Assembly (NCBI RefSeq): GCF_009914755.1 | Contig: NC_060931.1 | Strand: one strand, 5' to 3' | DNA: 64,000 bases | Origin: the human T2T-CHM13v2.0 reference genome, Homo sapiens | Shown: positions 5,453 through 64,000 of the stretch, in pieces | Position numbering within the stretch: position 1 is the first letter of the stretch | How the letters are laid out: the number at the start of each line of letters is the position of its first letter | The notes under the pieces: generated by a model | The model's database searches: none | Seen by the model: only the letters and a program-made list of their open reading frames with translations | Told to the model about the DNA's origin: nothing | Position numbers and translations under genes: made by a program

Positions 5453-5663
5453 CTGCCACCTCCTTGGACGATGGCAGACTCGCGGCGGCAGCCTCAAGGT
5501 CGGCTGGGACGGTGCCTCCTCTCTCCATGGCGCGCAGGAGCCCGCGCAGTCGCTCGCACTCCGCCTGCAGCTGGCTGTGGTCCTCGTGCAGGCGCTGCCT
5601 GGCCACACTGGTGGGGTTCAGGCTCATGTGCAGCACTTTGGTCCTGCTCTGGTCATAGTCACC
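5453..5663 (-). CDS. MAD1L1: MAD1L1 coding exon (exon 17, 211 nt) containing the MAD2-interaction motif: [29 protein letters not shown]...SSKEVA
   Basis: Acceptor gtgttcctgcag|GGT and donor GGCAG|gtaggc. Peptide in ORF 5202..5684 matches MAD1, including the KVLHMSLNP motif. Confidence 0.97.
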
Positions 5664-5672
5664 CTGCAGGAA

Positions 5673-5782
5673 CACACACAGCACAAGTCACCATGGCCCA
5701 GGCACACACGCAGCACGGGTCACACACAGCATGGGTCACCATGGCCCAGGAAGACACACAGCACGGGTCACACACAGCACAG
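5673..5782. repeat. Short degenerate repeat abutting the exon-17 acceptor (~16-bp subunits, ~48-bp higher order)
   Basis: cacacagcacgggtca and ccatggcccagg modules recur. Confidence 0.75.
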
Positions 5783-7938: not shown

Positions 7939-9431
7939 CCCGCCAAGTGCTGAGATTCTGCAGCTTGTGGCTGTGAGCTGTGGGGCAGTGAGACTGGATG
8001 GGCACCCGGTCCCTCAGGCACAGACATGACCATGGTCATGACATGGGTCATGTCAGGCACAGACATGACCCAGCAAGCCAGGCCAGCACCACGCATAGCA
8101 ATGGCCTCCTCCCCTTTGGCAATGAGTTCCTGCCACCCTTGGGGCTTCTGCCCACGCACTCTCCTATCTCCCAGAGGGGAACAGGGAAACACATCCTGTG
8201 TTCAGATCACCCCACGCTCTCAGGAGAGGCCGGTGTGGACACACCCCACGGGGTGAAGAGACCGGGCGCAGTAAGCCTCCAGCCTCCCAAGAGCTTAGGC
8301 TGCTGTGGGCCACTGCTCTCCAAGTCCCCGAAGGACGGCGAGGCCTGGCTTGGGCTGTACCCTGGGGACCTCACTTGGGCTGGAGCTCATCAGCCATGGG
8401 CAATCGTGGTCCCAGAGCCCAGAATGTGCCTCCAACAGGGAGAGAGGAGAGGATGGGGAAGAAGGGAAGAGACCTCACCCCTCCTGGTGCCACCCCGGAC
8501 TCTAAGACATCCCCCTGACGTCACGTCACACAAGCTAACTGCTGGCCCTGCCACCCCCCTCATGGAAGAGGCCAGTGGAGATGGACATGCTGACCTGGAC
8601 CAGGGACCTCCAGCCCCATGGCACGATGGCAGAGGCCGCCGCAGAGGGAAGCGGGGTTTGCAGACACGGCTCGCTTGGCCGCTCCCTCTGTGCTTCTCCT
8701 GGGAAGGAGGAGGGGAGGGGAAATCCACCCACTCAGGCCCAGGGGAGAGGGAGGCGGCAGCCCTGCCGCTGGGCCGGGGCAGGAGAGGATCCGCGCAGCT
8801 CTTCACAGGTTTTCTGAGAACCTTGTAAACCTCAGAGGATGAAGAGACATCTTGTAACTCTGGCTGAATCACAGACTCTTGGGGTTGAAAGGATTGCTAC
8901 TTCATCCAGTTTTCACAGCCGGGGTTAAGATAACCCAGTATGCAGAATCCAGCCACCCACACGCACTCAGGAGACCCCTCTGACGGGCGGCACTGGCTTT
9001 CCGGGGCCTCTGTGGGCTGGACAGCATCTCAACCTCTTCACCATCCTACGGAGCCTCGAGGAGCCAGGGAGGATGTGGGCAGAGGGTGGGGCCGCCTCCT
9101 GCGGAGAGCAGCCAGTCACGGGGCTGTGCAGTCACCCTGCCCCCGTCCTAACCACGTAGCGCTGCAACTGCACCCAGAAAGCCGCAGGGCACACAAGGCC
9201 AGCATGGGCCCCGCTGACGGAGCTGCGGGCACGGAAACACGAATCTGAATTTCAGATAACCCGCGTGTGTCCCAAAATATTCTTCTTTTGATTTTCTTCA
9301 ACCCTTCAAAAATGTACAACGGTTCTTAGTTGAGGGGCTGCACAGAAGGCGGGGCTGTAGTCAGCTGACCCCTGGCAAGAACCAGGCCGCACAGCGTGTA
9401 CTCAGCCCTCCTCTGACCCAGAGCAGTGAGA

Positions 9432-9688
9432 CCCTCCTCCCCCAGGCCTCACCCTCCTCTTCCTCCCCCCGCAGGCCTCACCCTCCTCTTCCTCTCCCAG
9501 GCCTCAGCCTCCTCTTCCTCCCCCCGCAGGCCTCACCCTCCTCTTCCTCTCCCAGGCCTCAGCCTCCTCTTCCTCTCCCAGGCCTCAGCCTCCTCTTCCT
9601 CTCCCAGGCCTCACCCTCCTCTTCCTCTCCCAGGCCTCAGCCTCCTCTTCCTCTCCCAGGCCTCAGCCTCCTCTTCCTCCCCAGGCTT
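9432..9688. repeat. Pyrimidine-rich minisatellite, ~26-bp unit, ~9 copies
   Basis: cccaggcctcagcctcctcttcctct repeated. Confidence 0.92.
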
Positions 9689-11319
9689 CAACACCGCGGA
9701 CCTCCTGAAGGGACCTCCAGGTGGGAGGAGGTAGTGACCATCCTAGAGGCTGCCCAGCAAGGCCTCGCCTGGCCCCAGCATCCTCCTACTTAGCAGATAG
9801 GGGGACTTGCAGGAGGGGTCGGGGGTCAGCGGTGGTGCGCCCAGCGCTGGCGTTGGACCCAGCAGTGCCTGAGGACGTCAAGTTCCCCGGGGTGGATGTC
9901 CTGGCAACGTTCAACGTTCCACGGGCAGGAACGAGAGCCAGAGGCACAGCCCCAGCCCCCAGCCCCCAGCCAGGGTGCCCCACGACCGGCCCATCATCCT
10001 GGGATGAGGTTTCCCCCCTGATGGGGGGCTTGAGGTCCAGGAAACAATTCTGTATATTAGAGGATTTAAGGACCAAAAGCCCAAGCCAGTAGAGATGAAG
10101 GAAACCAAATCAAAACAGAGAAAAGATAAAACTGAGAAGTTCTTCTTAAACACCAATCCTGTCACCCTCTGGCCCCCAACAGTGCAGCGCCCTGCACTGC
10201 TGGCCCCGCTGGGGGCGAAGGCTTGGTGTGTGCAAAGCCACCGTGTCCGGGCTGGGACCAGCCCCCAGGCTTGTCCTCCTCAGCCGCTACGCATGCACCA
10301 CCAGGTCCTGCTCTCCCGGAGCCACAGTGTGAGGCCAAGGTCGGCGCAGGTTCCCGTGGCCCGGCTTCCACCTGCAGCAGGAGGCCCTGGGTCACGGAGA
10401 GCATTCACTGGGCACCCGCGGCTGGGGCTGGAGCGACCTGCGATGGCACCGCTGACCAGGGCTGAGAACAAGCCTGGGCTCCATAACTGGTGGCGTGGAG
10501 AACCCACCTCCCAGGAGGGCGAGGGAAGTGGGAGGACAGGCGCTAGGGCTCTGCAGATGGCAACATTCCAGGCAGCTAGTCGTCTTTCTGTAAGTTCAGG
10601 GGACTTTCCCTGCCTAACGCCTGGAGAAGGCAGAGCCCCTAGAGGCAGCACGGGAGGGGCAGACTGGGCACCACCCACCCGCTCACGTCCCCACCGTGAT
10701 TTTGGGCCAGGCTCTTGACCTCCACGCGTTCGTTCCTGCCATCCTTCCTTTCTTCCCTTAGTCCATCCACCCGCACACCTGTCTGTCCATCTGACATGAT
10801 TTCCAGGCCCTGGATGCCCTCAGCACAGCTGTGAATACAGGGGTGGAGCTGCCACTCATGGTGGGAGCAGCTGGCATCCCACAGAGGAGCCTCCTGGGCC
10901 AACACTCAGCACGTGGAGGGGACATTCCCGGCCCCTCCAGAAGGAGGCCACGCCTGAGCCCCTGGGGGCCCAGGACCTCTGCTCCAGGTGAGACAGGACC
11001 GTGCCCCAAGGTGGCTGGGGGCGACAGCCAAACTTCCAGCCTGCTGCTGTGACCACAGCCTGGGCAGCGCAGAGTCAGGCACACCATTCCATGCCTCGGA
11101 GCCCGCGCGCCACACATTTCAGCAGGTGCTGGAAGTGCAGGGGTAATGGGAGCCCTGTGCTGAGGCCCGTCTCCAGGGCAGCCGAGTGTCGGGATGGGAG
11201 GACGGCCCTATGTCCTATACAAACAGCACCACTCCTGCACCCACCCCACCAAGAGGAGCCATTTCAAACACACAGGCAGCAAAACAGCATGGGAGGAAAC
11301 TAGGCGGGATCTAGGTGAT

Positions 11320-16226: not shown

Positions 16227-16365
16227 GGCCTTCCCATCTCCTGCCCGTGGCCTTGCCCGCTTGGCCTTCCCATCTCCTGCCCGTGGCCTTGCCCGCTTGG
16301 CCTTCCCATCTCCTGCCCGTGGCCTTGCCCGCTTGGCCTTCCCATCTCCTGCCCGTGGCCTTGCC
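16227..16365. repeat. Minisatellite, 36-bp unit, ~3.8 copies
   Basis: ggccttcccatctcctgcccgtggccttgcccgctt; 12-aa periodicity in ORFs. Confidence 0.92.
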
Positions 16366-26302: not shown

Positions 26303-26393
26303 CTGCAGAGCTCGCCGCTCCAGCTGTGCCTCCAGCATCCTCTTTTCCTCCTCCAGCCGACTCCGCTCGCCTTCCAGCTCCTCGACCTTCAAC
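26303..26393 (-). CDS. MAD1L1: MAD1L1 coding exon (exon 16, 91 nt): (R)LKVEELEGERSRLEEEKRMLEAQLERRALQ
   Basis: Acceptor ctgtccttgcag|G and donor CTGCAG|gtgagg. Coiled-coil peptide at the start of ORF 25832..26392. Phase 2 in, phase 0 out. Confidence 0.96.
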
Positions 26394-48840: not shown

Positions 48841-49150
48841 GGCACACCTGAGCGTGCGCACCTCCCCGCTGGGGGACACGCCTGAGCATGTCCACTTCCT
48901 TCCTGGGGGACACACATGAGCGTGCCCACCTCCCCCCACCCCACAGGACACACCTGAGCACGTCCGCCTCTTCCTCCGTGGGACACACCTGGGCGTATCC
49001 GCCTCCTCCCCCACAGGACACACCTGGGCGTATCTGCCTCCTCCCCCGCAGGACACACCTGGGCGTATCCGCCTCCTCTCTGGGGGACACACCTGGGCGT
49101 GTCCGCCTCCTCTCTGGGGGACGTACCTGAGCGTGTCCGCCTCCTCCCTG
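48841..49150. repeat. Minisatellite, 34-35-bp unit, ~9 copies, overlapping the exon-15 donor
   Basis: ggacacacctgggcgtatccgcctcctc... repeated; the last copy is the exon end and donor itself. Confidence 0.9.
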
Positions 49151-49215
49151 GAGAACAGGAAGCTCTGTTCGGCAGAGCTGGACTGAGACTTCAGCATCTT
49201 CAGCTCCATCTCCAG
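49127..49215 (-). CDS. MAD1L1: MAD1L1 coding exon (exon 15, 89 nt): LEMELKMLKSQSSSAEQSFLFSREEADTL(R)
   Basis: Acceptor ttgctttctcctag|CTG and donor CTCAG|gtacgt. Starts in phase 0 and ends in phase 2, matching the next exon. Lies within ORF 48772..49209. Confidence 0.96.
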
Positions 49216-49611
49216 CTAGGAGAAAGCAAAGGATAGAGGGTCAGCAGACACGAGCGCACCCAGGTGTGTGGGGAACCCCAGCCCAGGCCCCTGAGACCAC
49301 CCCTGGCAGCACCCCCGCCCTGGGCTGGGAGCTGCGGGAGAGACCTCTCTCCTGGAAGCCTGAAGCTGCCAGGCCAGACAGCACTCTAACTTTGCAAACT
49401 CAAGTTCTCTCATTTTTTTGTCACTTCCATCTCCTGAATAGCAACAGATGCACAGGCTCACGGTGAGGTGTGTGGGGTGCATGTGAGAGTCTCTGGAGAG
49501 TGGACACGCAGCTGGGGAGAGAGCACGCTCCAACGCTGCCGTCGGTTTGGTTTAACAGCCACAAGCCGTCGTTTATTCCGCTACTTCCAATTCCTCTACA
49601 GAACAGCGTGA

Positions 49612-58445: not shown

Positions 58446-59359
58446 GGCCGGCTGGCCCCATGTTCCTCTGCCTACAAGGTCCCTCCCTCCTGGAGTACAG
58501 GCCTGGCCTACCAGATCCACTCATAGCCCCAACCTTCATGAAACATTCATGCTAATGGTCCTTGTGGCAAACTCACTAGCGCAGCATAACCTTTAAATAG
58601 AGACCTTGCATTCGGTTTAATTTGGGAAGATGCAGGGTGTGCTCCCAGGCGCCTTCCCTAATGCCACAAACTAATAACAAGAGGAGGAGCTGGGTAACTC
58701 CCCCCACCGCAATTCTAATTAACGAGGCTGCCGCTGAGTGCCAGAGTGAGGGCGTCCACATGCGCGTGCACCCGCCGCCTCATCGCCAACTCACGTGGCA
58801 TCGCTGAGTCTCAGCTGCAACCTGTGCCCGGGAGGTGGTGAGGCTGAGGCCCAGAGCCTCACAGAACCCTGGCTGCAAGGTGAGGGCCCACATCCCAGGG
58901 CTCCCTGGGGCTGACTGGGGCAGAGGCTCCAGGTCTCCAAGAGATGAGAGGGTGCTGAGGCCACAGCTGGGCATCCTGGCCAGAGGCCACCTTTCCGCTC
59001 AACTCTGCACCCTCTGGCACCAGGAAGCCTTCTGGAGTGGCTGTGGCTTCCTAAGGAGGCCTCGGGGGGATCTTAGGTGGAGTCCACTCTCCAGCTTCCT
59101 TTCCAGCCTGGAGGAGACACAGGCACTGTGGGCCATGGACAGCCCCCTTGGCTCACCCAGACATTTCCTCGTGAGCACAGATGTGCGCCTGAGCTGGGAA
59201 ATGCTTTCTCCTCAGAAAAAAACAGCCCAGCCGGAGGGCATGTCCCGGCCGAATGTTCGCCTGATGCACCGCCCCTGGGATGAGGCCGCTGCAGAACCAG
59301 AGCAGCTTTGCTTGGAGGAACCGGGGCCTCACCACCAGGGCTGCAGCGTGCCCAGGGCC

Positions 59360-59648
59360 GCCACTGCTGGCCTCACGAGCACCGCTGGGTGCCTGAGCAC
59401 CTGCCCCACCAGAGCGCCACTGCTGGCCTCACGAGCACCGCTGGGTGCCTGAGCACCTGCCCCACCAGAGCGCCACTGCTGGCCTCACGAGCACCGCTGG
59501 GTGCCTGAGCACCTGCCCCACCAGAGCGCCACTGCTGGCCTCACGAGCACCGCTGGGTGCCTGAGCACCTGCCCCACCAGAGCGCCACTGCTGGCCTCAC
59601 GAGCACCGCTGGGTGCCTGAGCACCTGCCCCACCAGAGCGCCACTGCT
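59360..59648. repeat. Near-perfect minisatellite, 56-bp unit, ~5.2 copies
   Basis: gccactgctggcctcacgagcaccgctgggtgcctgagcacctgccccaccagagc starts at 59360, 59416, 59472, 59528, 59584 and 59640. Confidence 0.95.
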
Positions 59649-63549: not shown

Positions 63550-63941
63550 CGGTCTACACACAGCTCCTGGGCATGCAGGGTCCCCCGGGTCTACACACGG
63601 CTGCTGGGCGGGCAGGGTCCCCCCGGGTCTACACACGGCTCCTGGGCGGGCAGGGTCCCCCCGGGTCTACACACGGCTCCTGGGCGGGCAGGGTCCCCCC
63701 CGGGTCTACACACGGCTCCTGGGCGGGCAGGGTCCCCCCGGGTCTACACACGGCTCCTGGGCGGGCAGGGTCCCCCCGGGTCTACACACGGCTCCTGGGC
63801 GGGCAGGGTCCCCCCCGGGTCTACACACGGCTCCTGGGCGGGCAGGGTCCCCCCCGGGTCTACACACGGCTCCTGGGCGGGCAGGGTCCCCCCGGGTCTA
63901 CACACGGCTGCTGGGCGGGCAGGGTCCCCCGGGTCTACACA
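63550..63941. repeat. GC-rich minisatellite, 38-39-bp unit, ~10 copies
   Basis: gggtctacacacggctcctgggcgggcagggtcccccc repeated, with C-run length variation. Confidence 0.95.
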
Positions 63942-64000
63942 TGCCTCACTGGGAGTCTCTTCAGGGAAGCTCCGCCGGTGTCCTCAGCCTCCCATGAGAA

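What the first reader, a model, noticed from the sequence alone, without database searches (positions are those of the whole stretch)
48841..49150. Minisatellite made of copies of the exon-15 splice donor; one copy gives a stop-free in-frame +46 aa MAD1 extension
Seen: the 34-35-bp unit is the exon 3' end plus 5' splice site. The real site is GAGGCGGACACGCTCAG|gtacgt; the copies read GAGGCGGA(C/T)ACGCCCAG|gtgtgt. Intact GT copies lie 34, 68, 103, 138 and 173 nt into the intron (GT at 49091-92, 49057-58, 49022-23, 48987-88, 48952-53). The +138 site is in frame with no stop. It adds YVPQRGGG...GEEADTPR (46 aa), which ends with an echo of the native REEADTLR; the others frameshift. Inference: the array is a ladder of competing or decoy donors. 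Copy-number or sequence alleles could tune NMD-bound versus insertion isoforms that break the coiled coil upstream of the MAD2-binding motif.
Basis: partly seen in the sequence, partly recalled or inferred. Interest (0 to 1): 0.8.

Follow-up and report, generated by a model that had tools for sequence, protein, structure and literature searches.

The report
Splice-donor copies repeated in MAD1L1 intron
A short tandem repeat in a human MAD1L1 intron began as copies of the end of an exon plus its splice signal, a known kind of arrangement in which the extra signals usually stay silent or are used only rarely.

Summary
A 34-35 bp minisatellite (window 48843-49151, about 9 units) starts inside the MAD1L1 exon at 49127-49215. 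It repeats the exon end plus 5' splice site into the intron. Five copies read exactly CAG|GTGTGT, at +34, +68, +103, +138 and +173. Three decayed copies follow. The +138 site is in frame and stop-free.

That openness is trivial: the array has no stop triplet in any sense frame. A second in-frame site lies at +279.

The architecture is a known class, described for F7 IVS7, IFI6, CBS, LMNB2, PDGF and ABCA7 intron 18. In those genes either only the first site is used, or the first one or two copies are used at low level. I found no description of the MAD1L1 array.

Copies match U1 almost as well as the native site (-7.7 versus -7.9 kcal/mol). Each copy sits in a predicted 8-bp sense-RNA hairpin. 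The native site's two differences (+3A, +4C) break that hairpin. This is in silico only, lacks covariation support and is not robust to fold window.

No splicing or population data could be reached. Best reading: mostly silent pseudo-donors, a new member of a known kind.

The parts
49127..49215 (-). It ends with 2 nt of a codon.
   Evidence: Gene table in the finding; reading frame 0 is open through the three window exons, with acceptor ...CTCCTAG| and donor GCTCAG|GTACGT.
49121..49129 (-). Native 5' splice site CAG|GTACGT (GT at 49126-49125).
   Evidence: It has 8 of 9 matches to CAG|GTAAGT. U1 duplex -7.9 kcal/mol. Local hairpin only -5.4 kcal/mol, z -0.23.
48843..49151 (-). 34-35 bp minisatellite of about 9 units. 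Unit 1 holds the last 25 exon bases and the native donor.
   Evidence: TRF. One search gives the unit layout: 34, 34, 34, 35, 35, 35, 38, 34, 34 nt; unit identities are 91% (units 2 v 3), 94% (4 v 5) and otherwise 58-83%; single copy in the genome.
49087..49095 (-). Pseudo-donor +34, CAG|GTGTGT. It shifts the frame, with a stop at the start of the exon at 5453-5663.
   Evidence: Hairpin -13.8 kcal/mol, z -3.06.
49053..49061 (-). Pseudo-donor +68, CAG|GTGTGT. It shifts the frame, with a stop in the exon at 26303-26393, 86 nt before that exon's donor.
   Evidence: Hairpin -12.2 kcal/mol, z -3.25.
49018..49026 (-). Pseudo-donor +103, CAG|GTGTGT. It shifts the frame.
   Evidence: Hairpin -8.5 kcal/mol, z -2.45.
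48983..48991 (-). Pseudo-donor +138, CAG|GTGTGT. It is in frame and would add 46 aa.
   Evidence: The printed 47-residue stretch (the insert plus the flanking R) has 6 Pro, 9 Gly and 3 Cys. Hairpin -12.0 kcal/mol, z -3.50.
48948..48956 (-). Pseudo-donor +173, CAG|GTGTGT. It shifts the frame.
   Evidence: Hairpin -7.9 kcal/mol, z -1.38.
48842..48918 (-). Three decayed donor copies: CAT|GTGTGT (+211), CAG|GCGTGT (+245) and CAG|GTGTGC (+279, in frame, +93 aa).
   Evidence: U1 duplex -1.9, -5.3 and -6.7 kcal/mol. Hairpins -12.8, -13.3 and -9.4 kcal/mol.
49246..49269 (+). Inverted partial copy of the unit in the upstream intron. CCCAGGTGTGT at 49259-49269 on the + strand is a perfect 11-nt complement of pseudo-donors +34 to +138. 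It also holds the donor of the predicted lncRNA exon 1 (49183-49263).
   Evidence: (I1, I9-I12), (CAG|GTGTGT at 49263/49264; the model's introns are GT-AG).
26303..26393 (-). Next MAD1L1 exon. Its acceptor at 26393 would receive any of the donors.
   Evidence: (...CCTTGCAG|GTTGAA) and the gene table in the finding.

Best explanation
The array is an intronic minisatellite that arose by tandem duplication of the exon end plus 5' splice site of a MAD1L1 coding exon, in a part of 7p22 that is full of minisatellites. It leaves a row of pseudo-donors behind the true donor. I expect the true, most upstream donor to be used in nearly all transcripts, for three reasons.

1. The exon has very long introns on both sides. 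Under exon definition the donor nearest the upstream acceptor wins, as shown by mutagenesis for the F7 IVS7 array.
2. The true site pairs slightly better with U1 (A rather than G at +3).
3. Each copy, but not the true site, is predicted to sit in the 3' arm of a local 8-bp hairpin of the sense RNA.

Residual use, most likely of the +34 and +68 copies, would shift the frame and feed NMD. The copies would serve as ready cryptic donors if the true site were damaged. The anatomy, frames, U1 pairing and local hairpins are shown here. The origin, the silence of the copies and the role of the hairpin are inferred.
For: Anatomy.

Minisatellite-rich setting: 47 TRF rows at score 80 or more in 64 kb, which I group into about 28 arrays.

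Old, decayed array: unit identities are 58-83% except for two pairs at 91% and 94%.

Long introns: the downstream intron runs from 49126 to 26394, and no upstream exon lies within the window (gene table in the finding).

Precedent for upstream-site dominance:
- In F7, pseudo-sites are functional but silent, and the most upstream working site is always chosen (PMC1557585 abstract, Introduction, one Results section and Discussion).
- With large flanking introns the sites closest across the exon are preferred (PMC9225289, abstract only).

No RefSeq transcript in the supplied gene table ends this exon elsewhere.

U1 duplex: -7.9 kcal/mol for the native site against -7.7 for the five intact copies.

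Hairpins:
- Local folds of the 8 copies give -7.9 to -13.8 kcal/mol, with z from -1.38 to -3.78. The native site gives -5.4 kcal/mol, z -0.23 (same energies).
- 68 of 72 stem cells pair, and both central mismatches are the native site's +3 and +4.
- The hairpin is much weaker as antisense RNA (-3.6 to -10.4 kcal/mol) and as DNA (-5.6 kcal/mol, z -1.73).
- In a 551-nt fold the mean unpaired probability over -3..+6 is 0.68 for the native site and 0.17-0.45 for the copies.

All six frame-shifting sites put a stop more than 55 nt before a later exon junction.
Against: - The copies are good donor 9-mers, nearly equal to the native site in U1 pairing. The identical 9-mer is the donor of a predicted lncRNA on the other strand.
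- In IFI6, CBS and ABCA7 the first one or two copies are in fact used.
- NMD would hide the +34 and +68 products, so their absence from RefSeq is weak evidence.
- The hairpin rests on energy models only.
- Covariation among units is not above shuffles (215 of 500 and 179 of 500 shuffles reach the observed values).
- The G/U-rich arm tolerates most transitions, so high pairing may simply be inherited.
- In a sliding-window accessibility measure the native site leads only at the shortest span: 0.016 against 0.0001-0.009 at W80/L40. It loses its lead at W150 and W300. The measure also does not mark the other two annotated donors as open.
- No RNA-seq, splice-score model or population data could be consulted.
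Confidence: 0.65

Rival explanations
1. The copies compete with the native donor in normal cells. Copy-number or sequence alleles set the share of NMD-bound transcripts and of a +46 aa insertion isoform, and so tune MAD1 dosage or function.
For: U1 pairing of copies and native site is nearly equal. The frames are as stated. In ABCA7 an array of this kind shows one-unit retention and length-dependent splicing changes (PMC5954066 passages). IFI6 and CBS use two copies (PMC1557585 Introduction).
Against: - No transcript in the supplied gene table uses a copy.
- In every studied relative only the first one or two copies are used, and +138 is the fourth.
- The unit length is not a multiple of three, and openness is trivial.
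- The printed 47-residue stretch (the 46-aa insert plus the flanking R) has 6 Pro and 9 Gly, so the insertion would not continue a coiled coil.
- The array is decayed, which argues against a highly length-variable locus.
- Local hairpins are predicted over the copies.
Confidence: 0.12
2. The copies act as U1-binding sites that are not themselves spliced. Extra U1 recruited just downstream strengthens definition of the 89-nt exon, or protects the long intron from premature cleavage and polyadenylation.
For: There are five 9-mers with 7 Watson-Crick pairs plus 1 G-U pair to the U1 5' end, within 173 nt of the exon. The intron is very long (gene table). That intronic U1 sites can have such effects is recalled general knowledge and comes from no call.
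Against: The predicted hairpins would hinder U1 binding. In F7, deleting or adding monomers was part of the construct series, and the authors excluded intronic auxiliary elements (Discussion). Nothing here tests U1 occupancy.
Confidence: 0.1
3. The array works at the DNA level as a transcription-factor site cluster or proximal promoter, for the antisense lncRNA or for MAD1L1 itself. This would resemble the PU.1-binding VNTR elsewhere in the gene.
For: There are six CAGGTG E-box cores at 34-35 bp spacing, GC is 68% and CpG observed/expected is 0.54. The array lies 32-340 bp upstream of the predicted lncRNA start at 49183 (gene table). Another MAD1L1 VNTR, at window 9435-9690, is a published expression VNTR (PMC11701250 passages).
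Against: CAGGTG is simply the core of the donor copy. The lncRNA is a predicted model. I found no mention of this array in the VNTR catalogues I could search. There is no binding or chromatin data here.
Confidence: 0.08

Closest known systems
F7 intron 7 minisatellite (37-bp monomer spanning the exon 7/IVS7 boundary; Borensztajn et al. 2006, PMC1557585)
   Same: The first monomer holds the exon end and the true donor. A similar number of units carry donor copies in the intron (5-9 in F7), and the unit size is similar. The true site is the most upstream one. Some copies would keep the frame.
   Different: - F7 copies are strictly identical to the true site, whereas here the true site differs at +3 and +4.
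- F7 shares only 4 exon bases; here 25 are shared.
- The F7 authors found no secondary structure specific to the copies (Discussion), whereas here each copy has a predicted hairpin.
- F7 has mutagenesis and patient data; MAD1L1 has none.
ABCA7 intron 18 VNTR (25-bp unit including the exon 18 donor; De Roeck et al. 2018, PMC5954066)
   Same: The array starts at the donor of a coding exon. Use of a copy retains one unit and shifts the frame toward NMD.
   Different: - ABCA7 is C-rich and much longer: 39.9 or more copies in the 3,020-base stretch I fetched, which ends inside the array.
- It is highly length-variable and disease-associated.
- Its donors are weak for U1 (-2.0 to -5.2 kcal/mol) and have no hairpin (-0.8 to -3.6 kcal/mol).
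IFI6 (6-16) exon 2/intron 2 minisatellite and CBS intron 13 minisatellite, as summarised in the PMC1557585 Introduction
   Same: The donor is reiterated by a boundary-spanning minisatellite.
   Different: In those genes the two most proximal copies are constitutively used alongside the true site. The original papers were not read. That the IFI6 unit is 12 nt, so that each step keeps the frame, is recalled and comes from no call. The MAD1L1 unit of 34-35 nt does not keep the frame.
5' splice sites held in a local hairpin (MAPT exon 10, SMN2 exon 7 TSL2)
   Same: The donor lies in a short stem of about 7-8 bp that would compete with U1 (PMC6720520 and PMC1802598; only the starts of the abstracts in a search listing were seen).
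   Different: Those stems regulate the true donor and are backed by mutations and experiments. Here the stems cover unused copies, are predicted only and have no covariation support.

Membership tests
Exon-intron-boundary minisatellite with reiterated 5' splice sites (F7 IVS7 type) | Tandem array of several units of minisatellite size | tested here: met
   TRF finds 8.9 copies of period 34, at 48843-49151.
Exon-intron-boundary minisatellite with reiterated 5' splice sites (F7 IVS7 type) | First monomer spans the exon-intron boundary and holds the true donor | tested here: met
   The array reaches 49151 and the exon ends at 49127. The native unit matches the 23-nt copy consensus with 3 mismatches.
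Exon-intron-boundary minisatellite with reiterated 5' splice sites (F7 IVS7 type) | Following units keep GT in a donor-like context | tested here: met
   Five copies are exact CAG|GTGTGT and three are decayed. The 9-mer occurs 7 times against 1.02 expected.
Exon-intron-boundary minisatellite with reiterated 5' splice sites (F7 IVS7 type) | Copies identical in sequence to the true donor (strict F7 form) | tested here: not met
   The native site is GTACGT. Seven of the 8 copies have G at +3 and T at +4 with GT at +1/+2; the +245 copy has GC at +1/+2.
Exon-intron-boundary minisatellite with reiterated 5' splice sites (F7 IVS7 type) | Length polymorphism in the population (VNTR in the strict sense) | not testable with these tools
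   Only one genome is held. Catalogue supplements gave nothing that I could tie to this locus.
Exon-intron-boundary minisatellite with reiterated 5' splice sites (F7 IVS7 type) | Known splicing outcome (only the first site used, or the first one or two copies as well) | not testable with these tools
   There is no RNA data. The supplied gene table shows one exon end only.
Hairpin-masked 5' splice site (MAPT exon 10 type) | Donor bases lie in a stable local stem | tested here: met
   This holds in silico for 8 of 8 copies (-7.9 to -13.8 kcal/mol). Six of the 8 have z of -2.45 or below, and the native site has z -0.23.
Hairpin-masked 5' splice site (MAPT exon 10 type) | Stem supported by compensatory change | tested here: inconclusive
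   There is one double change. Covariation is not above shuffles (215 of 500 and 179 of 500). The accessibility advantage is not robust to window size.
Hairpin-masked 5' splice site (MAPT exon 10 type) | Opening the stem raises use of the site | not testable with these tools
   This needs a minigene or structure probing.
In-frame donor ladder that yields protein isoforms (IFI6 type) | Unit length a multiple of three, so that each step keeps the frame | tested here: not met
   Units are 34, 34, 35, 35, 35, 38, 34 and 34 nt. Only +138 and +279 are in frame.

The most novel reading that the evidence does not exclude
The donor copies are held shut by sense-strand RNA hairpins, which the true donor escaped through its two substitutions at +3 and +4. 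Alleles that open a hairpin, weaken the true site or change unit number would divert transcripts to frame-shifted, NMD-bound products. That would lower MAD1 dosage and contribute to MAD1L1-linked aneuploidy or psychiatric association signals.
Probability: 0.08. Interest if true: 0.65.

Novelty: new member of a known kind. Interest (0 to 1): 0.3.

Why it matters
MAD1 dosage matters for the spindle checkpoint. A preprint reports that coding and splice-altering MAD1L1 variation affects blood-cell aneuploidy (PMC13622753 passages).

An array of near-equal donors directly behind a coding exon is a standing source of cryptic splicing. It bears on how variants at this donor are interpreted, because a ready replacement site sits 34 nt away and would shift the frame.

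It is also a natural test bed for how the first of several similar donors is chosen. Unlike F7, the true site here differs from its copies at just two bases, and those bases also decide a predicted hairpin.

If the copies are simply silent, this is an ordinary by-product of a minisatellite-rich region.

Tried and rejected
Steps that could not be completed:
Residue numbers in this report are recalled.
- The 5' splice-site activity atlas (Wong et al. 2018, PMC6179149) is not held. No MaxEntScan or SpliceAI model is available. Site strength therefore rests on consensus matches and U1 duplex energy only.

VNTR and splicing catalogues:
- Hamanaka 2023 supplements list only an AC repeat for MAD1L1, and one file was not searched.
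- The PMC11701250 supplement has no MAD1L1 row.
- The Bakhtiari 2021 supplement lists only a different coding VNTR.
- The Eslami Rasekh 2021 supplement has five MAD1L1 VNTR ids without coordinates.

Literature searches for this array:
- One search returned 12 papers; I read passages of 2.
- One search matched 334 papers and listed 25; 2 of the listed hold MAD1L1.
- In one search, 0 of the 12 listed papers hold MAD1L1.
- One search was too broad to help.
- None described the array.

Ideas tested and rejected:
- G-quadruplex: no canonical motif on either strand.
- DNA hairpin as a driver of slippage: weak (-5.6 kcal/mol, z -1.73).
- Selection on the hairpin: no covariation above shuffles.
- Dispersed repeat family: only the self-match in the whole genome.
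- Coding potential of the array: all three frames are open, and 343 of 5000 composition shuffles are open in frame 0, so openness says nothing.

F7 primers are not given in the paper, so F7 was not fetched for comparison.

Full report
**What is there**

Read on the minus strand, which is the MAD1L1 sense strand, the exon at 49127-49215 ends ...GGCGGACACGCTCAG and is followed by GTACGT. Tandem Repeats Finder reports an array at 48843-49151: period 34, 8.9 copies, 77% matches. It also reports a purer sub-array at 48946-49147 (period 35, 86% matches) and a two-unit period of 70. The exon ends at 49127, so its last 25 bases belong to the first unit.

Cutting the sequence after each donor-like position gives units of 34, 34, 34, 35, 35, 35, 38, 34 and 34 nt. 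Units 2 and 3 are 91% alike and units 4 and 5 are 94% alike. All other pairs are 58-83% alike. This is an old, decayed array with two younger duplications. A search of the whole genome with the 309 bases found only the locus itself.

**The donor copies**

| Offset | Sequence | GT position |
|---|---|---|
| native | CAG\|GTACGT | 49126 |
| +34 | CAG\|GTGTGT | 49092 |
| +68 | CAG\|GTGTGT | 49058 |
| +103 | CAG\|GTGTGT | 49023 |
| +138 | CAG\|GTGTGT | 48988 |
| +173 | CAG\|GTGTGT | 48953 |
| +211 | CAT\|GTGTGT | 48915 |
| +245 | CAG\|GCGTGT | 48881 |
| +279 | CAG\|GTGTGC | 48847 |

The 9-mer CAGGTGTGT occurs 7 times in the window against 1.02 expected, and 0 of 100 shuffles reached 7. Five of the seven lie in the array. 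None is expected by chance.

**Frames**

The three window exons read open in one frame, and the exon ends with two bases of a codon. Splicing from each candidate site to the acceptor at 26393 gives the following:
- +138 and +279 stay in frame without a stop, adding 46 and 93 residues.
- +34, +103 and +211 stop at the start of the exon at 5453-5663.
- +68, +173 and +245 stop in the exon at 26303-26393, 86 nt before its donor.

All six frame-shifted products would therefore be expected NMD substrates, by the usual rule of a stop more than about 50-55 nt before a later junction (established knowledge).

The stop-free state of +138 carries no weight. The 279 nt contain no TAA, TAG or TGA in any of the three sense frames, and 343 of 5000 composition shuffles are open in frame 0. 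The printed 47-residue stretch, which is the 46-aa insert plus the flanking R, has 6 prolines, 9 glycines and 3 cysteines. It would not continue a coiled coil.

From recalled residue numbering (His at position 558 in the exon at 5453-5663), the insertion point is near residue 502, upstream of the MAD2-binding motif. I could not check this against solved structures.

**Setting**

The window gives 47 TRF rows at score 80 or more. I group these into about 28 separate arrays. One of them, at 9435-9690, matches the motif of a published MAD1L1 expression VNTR that binds PU.1 (PMC11701250 passages). Minisatellites are thus the rule here. What sets this one apart is only that it starts inside an exon.

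**What is known**

The arrangement is a described class. The Introduction of Borensztajn et al. 2006 (PMC1557585) lists minisatellites whose first monomer spans an exon-intron boundary:

| Gene | Donor usage reported |
|---|---|
| IFI6 6-16 | 25 copies; the two nearest are used as well as the true site |
| CBS intron 13 | two copies used |
| LMNB2 | only the true site used |
| PDGF intron 4 | only the true site used |
| F7 intron 7 | 37-bp monomer, copies identical to the true site, only the most upstream site used |

Their mutagenesis shows that the F7 copies are functional. It also shows that the most upstream working site is always chosen, and that exon skipping rises as that site moves away.

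De Roeck et al. 2018 (PMC5954066 passages) describe a 25-bp VNTR that includes the ABCA7 exon 18 donor. There a one-unit retention shifts the frame, and splicing changes depend on array length.

I fetched the ABCA7 locus from the same genome. The anatomy is the same: native CCT|GTGAGC followed by CCC|GTGAGC copies.

Carranza et al. 2022 (PMC9225289, abstract only) report that with large flanking introns the sites closest across the exon are preferred. The MAD1L1 exon has a downstream intron of about 22.7 kb and no upstream exon within the window.

My searches found no description of the MAD1L1 array (supplements). Supplements that I could not read, and coordinate-only tables, may still list it.

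**How strong are the copies**

Paired with the U1 5' end (a recalled 11-mer), the native site gives -7.9 kcal/mol with 8 Watson-Crick pairs. The five intact copies give -7.7 kcal/mol with 7 Watson-Crick pairs and one G-U pair. The decayed ones give -1.9, -5.3 and -6.7 kcal/mol.

The same 9-mer is the donor of the predicted lncRNA exon 1 on the other strand, at 49263/49264, and that model's introns are GT-AG. The copies are therefore credible donors. No trained splice-site model was available.

**A difference between the true site and its copies**

Each unit is an imperfect palindrome: GGA(C/U)ACGC, a four-base loop ending in the last exon-like bases, then GUGUGUCC.

Evidence for a hairpin that covers the copies but not the native site:
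- Folded as 24-nt sense RNA, the eight copies give -13.8, -12.2, -8.5, -12.0, -7.9, -12.8, -13.3 and -9.4 kcal/mol. Their z-scores are -3.06, -3.25, -2.45, -3.50, -1.38, -3.23, -3.78 and -1.55.
- The native unit gives -5.4 kcal/mol, z -0.23 (same energies).
- The stem's 3' arm is intron positions +1 to +8.
- Across the nine units 68 of 72 stem cells pair. The two central mismatches are exactly the native site's +3A and +4C.
- The structure is strand-specific. Antisense RNA gives -3.6 to -10.4 kcal/mol, and DNA gives -5.6 kcal/mol, z -1.73.
- In a 551-nt fold the native site is the most open: mean unpaired probability 0.68 against 0.17-0.45 for the copies.
- ABCA7 donors show no such stems (-0.8 to -3.6 kcal/mol).

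Evidence against:
- Covariation is not above shuffles (215 of 500 and 179 of 500).
- The G/U-rich arm tolerates most transitions.
- In a sliding-window measure of all nine bases being free, the native site leads only at the shortest span and not at W150 or W300. That measure also does not mark the other two annotated donors as open.

I therefore treat the hairpin as a plausible contributor and not as shown.

**An inverted copy**

In the upstream intron, 49246-49269 carries an inverted partial unit. The 11 bases at 49259-49269 are a perfect complement of the +34 to +138 pseudo-donors in the pre-mRNA. This stretch is also where the predicted lncRNA's first donor lies. It could pair with one copy at a time. 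I did not take this further.

**Verdict**

The functional claim of a tuning ladder has no support that I could reach, and the +138 isoform is the least likely outcome by every precedent.

The best reading, at about 0.65, is a boundary-spanning minisatellite whose pseudo-donors are mostly silent. The reasons are that the true site comes first in an exon-defined exon, pairs slightly better with U1, and may be the only one not locked in a hairpin. Rare use of +34 or +68 would be lost to NMD.

This is a new member of a known kind, of modest interest. It would rise if junction data, population data or minigenes showed use of the copies or a hairpin effect.

Noticed in passing
window 9435-9690: A 26-bp tandem array (9.7 copies) whose unit contains the motif CCTCCTCTTCCTCTCCCAGGCCTCA. 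That motif is published as a fine-mapped MAD1L1 expression VNTR that binds PU.1 (hg38 chr7:1,940,924; PMC11701250 passages). The gene table lists RefSeq enhancers only nearby, at 8426-9155.
   Followed up: partly
window 5673-5781, next to the exon at 5453-5663: A 48-bp tandem repeat (2.3 copies) ends 10 bases from the acceptor of the next-but-one MAD1L1 exon. The unit (...CCTGGGCCATGGTGAC...) resembles the acceptor-exon junction (...TTCCTGCAG|GGTGAC...). A second exon boundary in this gene therefore touches a minisatellite, this time on the acceptor side.
   Followed up: no
window 5453-5663, minus strand: The translation reads ...ARQRLHEDH.... From memory this is the His allele of the common MAD1L1 Arg558His polymorphism. 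A preprint names a MAD1L1 missense variant as a top signal for chromosome 15 gain without giving the residue in the text I saw (PMC13622753 passages).
   Followed up: no
window 49246-49269 and 49459-49479, plus strand: Inverted partial copies of the repeat unit lie in the upstream intron. The first gives a perfect 11-nt complement to four pseudo-donors and holds the donor of the predicted lncRNA LOC124901573 exon 1. In the 551-nt fold it pairs with the +103 or +173 copy at probability 0.47.
   Followed up: partly
window 48843-49126, minus strand: Several units also carry GTCCCCCAG followed by a purine, which is a short acceptor-like motif a few bases after each donor copy. It is too close to the donor of the same unit to form an intron. 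I did not test whether it could pair with a more distant donor.
   Followed up: no
whole window: Minisatellites are very dense: 47 TRF rows at score 80 or more, about 28 arrays by my grouping. Several have 95-100% identical units, for example 16227-16365, 59359-59648 and 63551-63953. These are likelier than the present array to vary in length.
   Followed up: no
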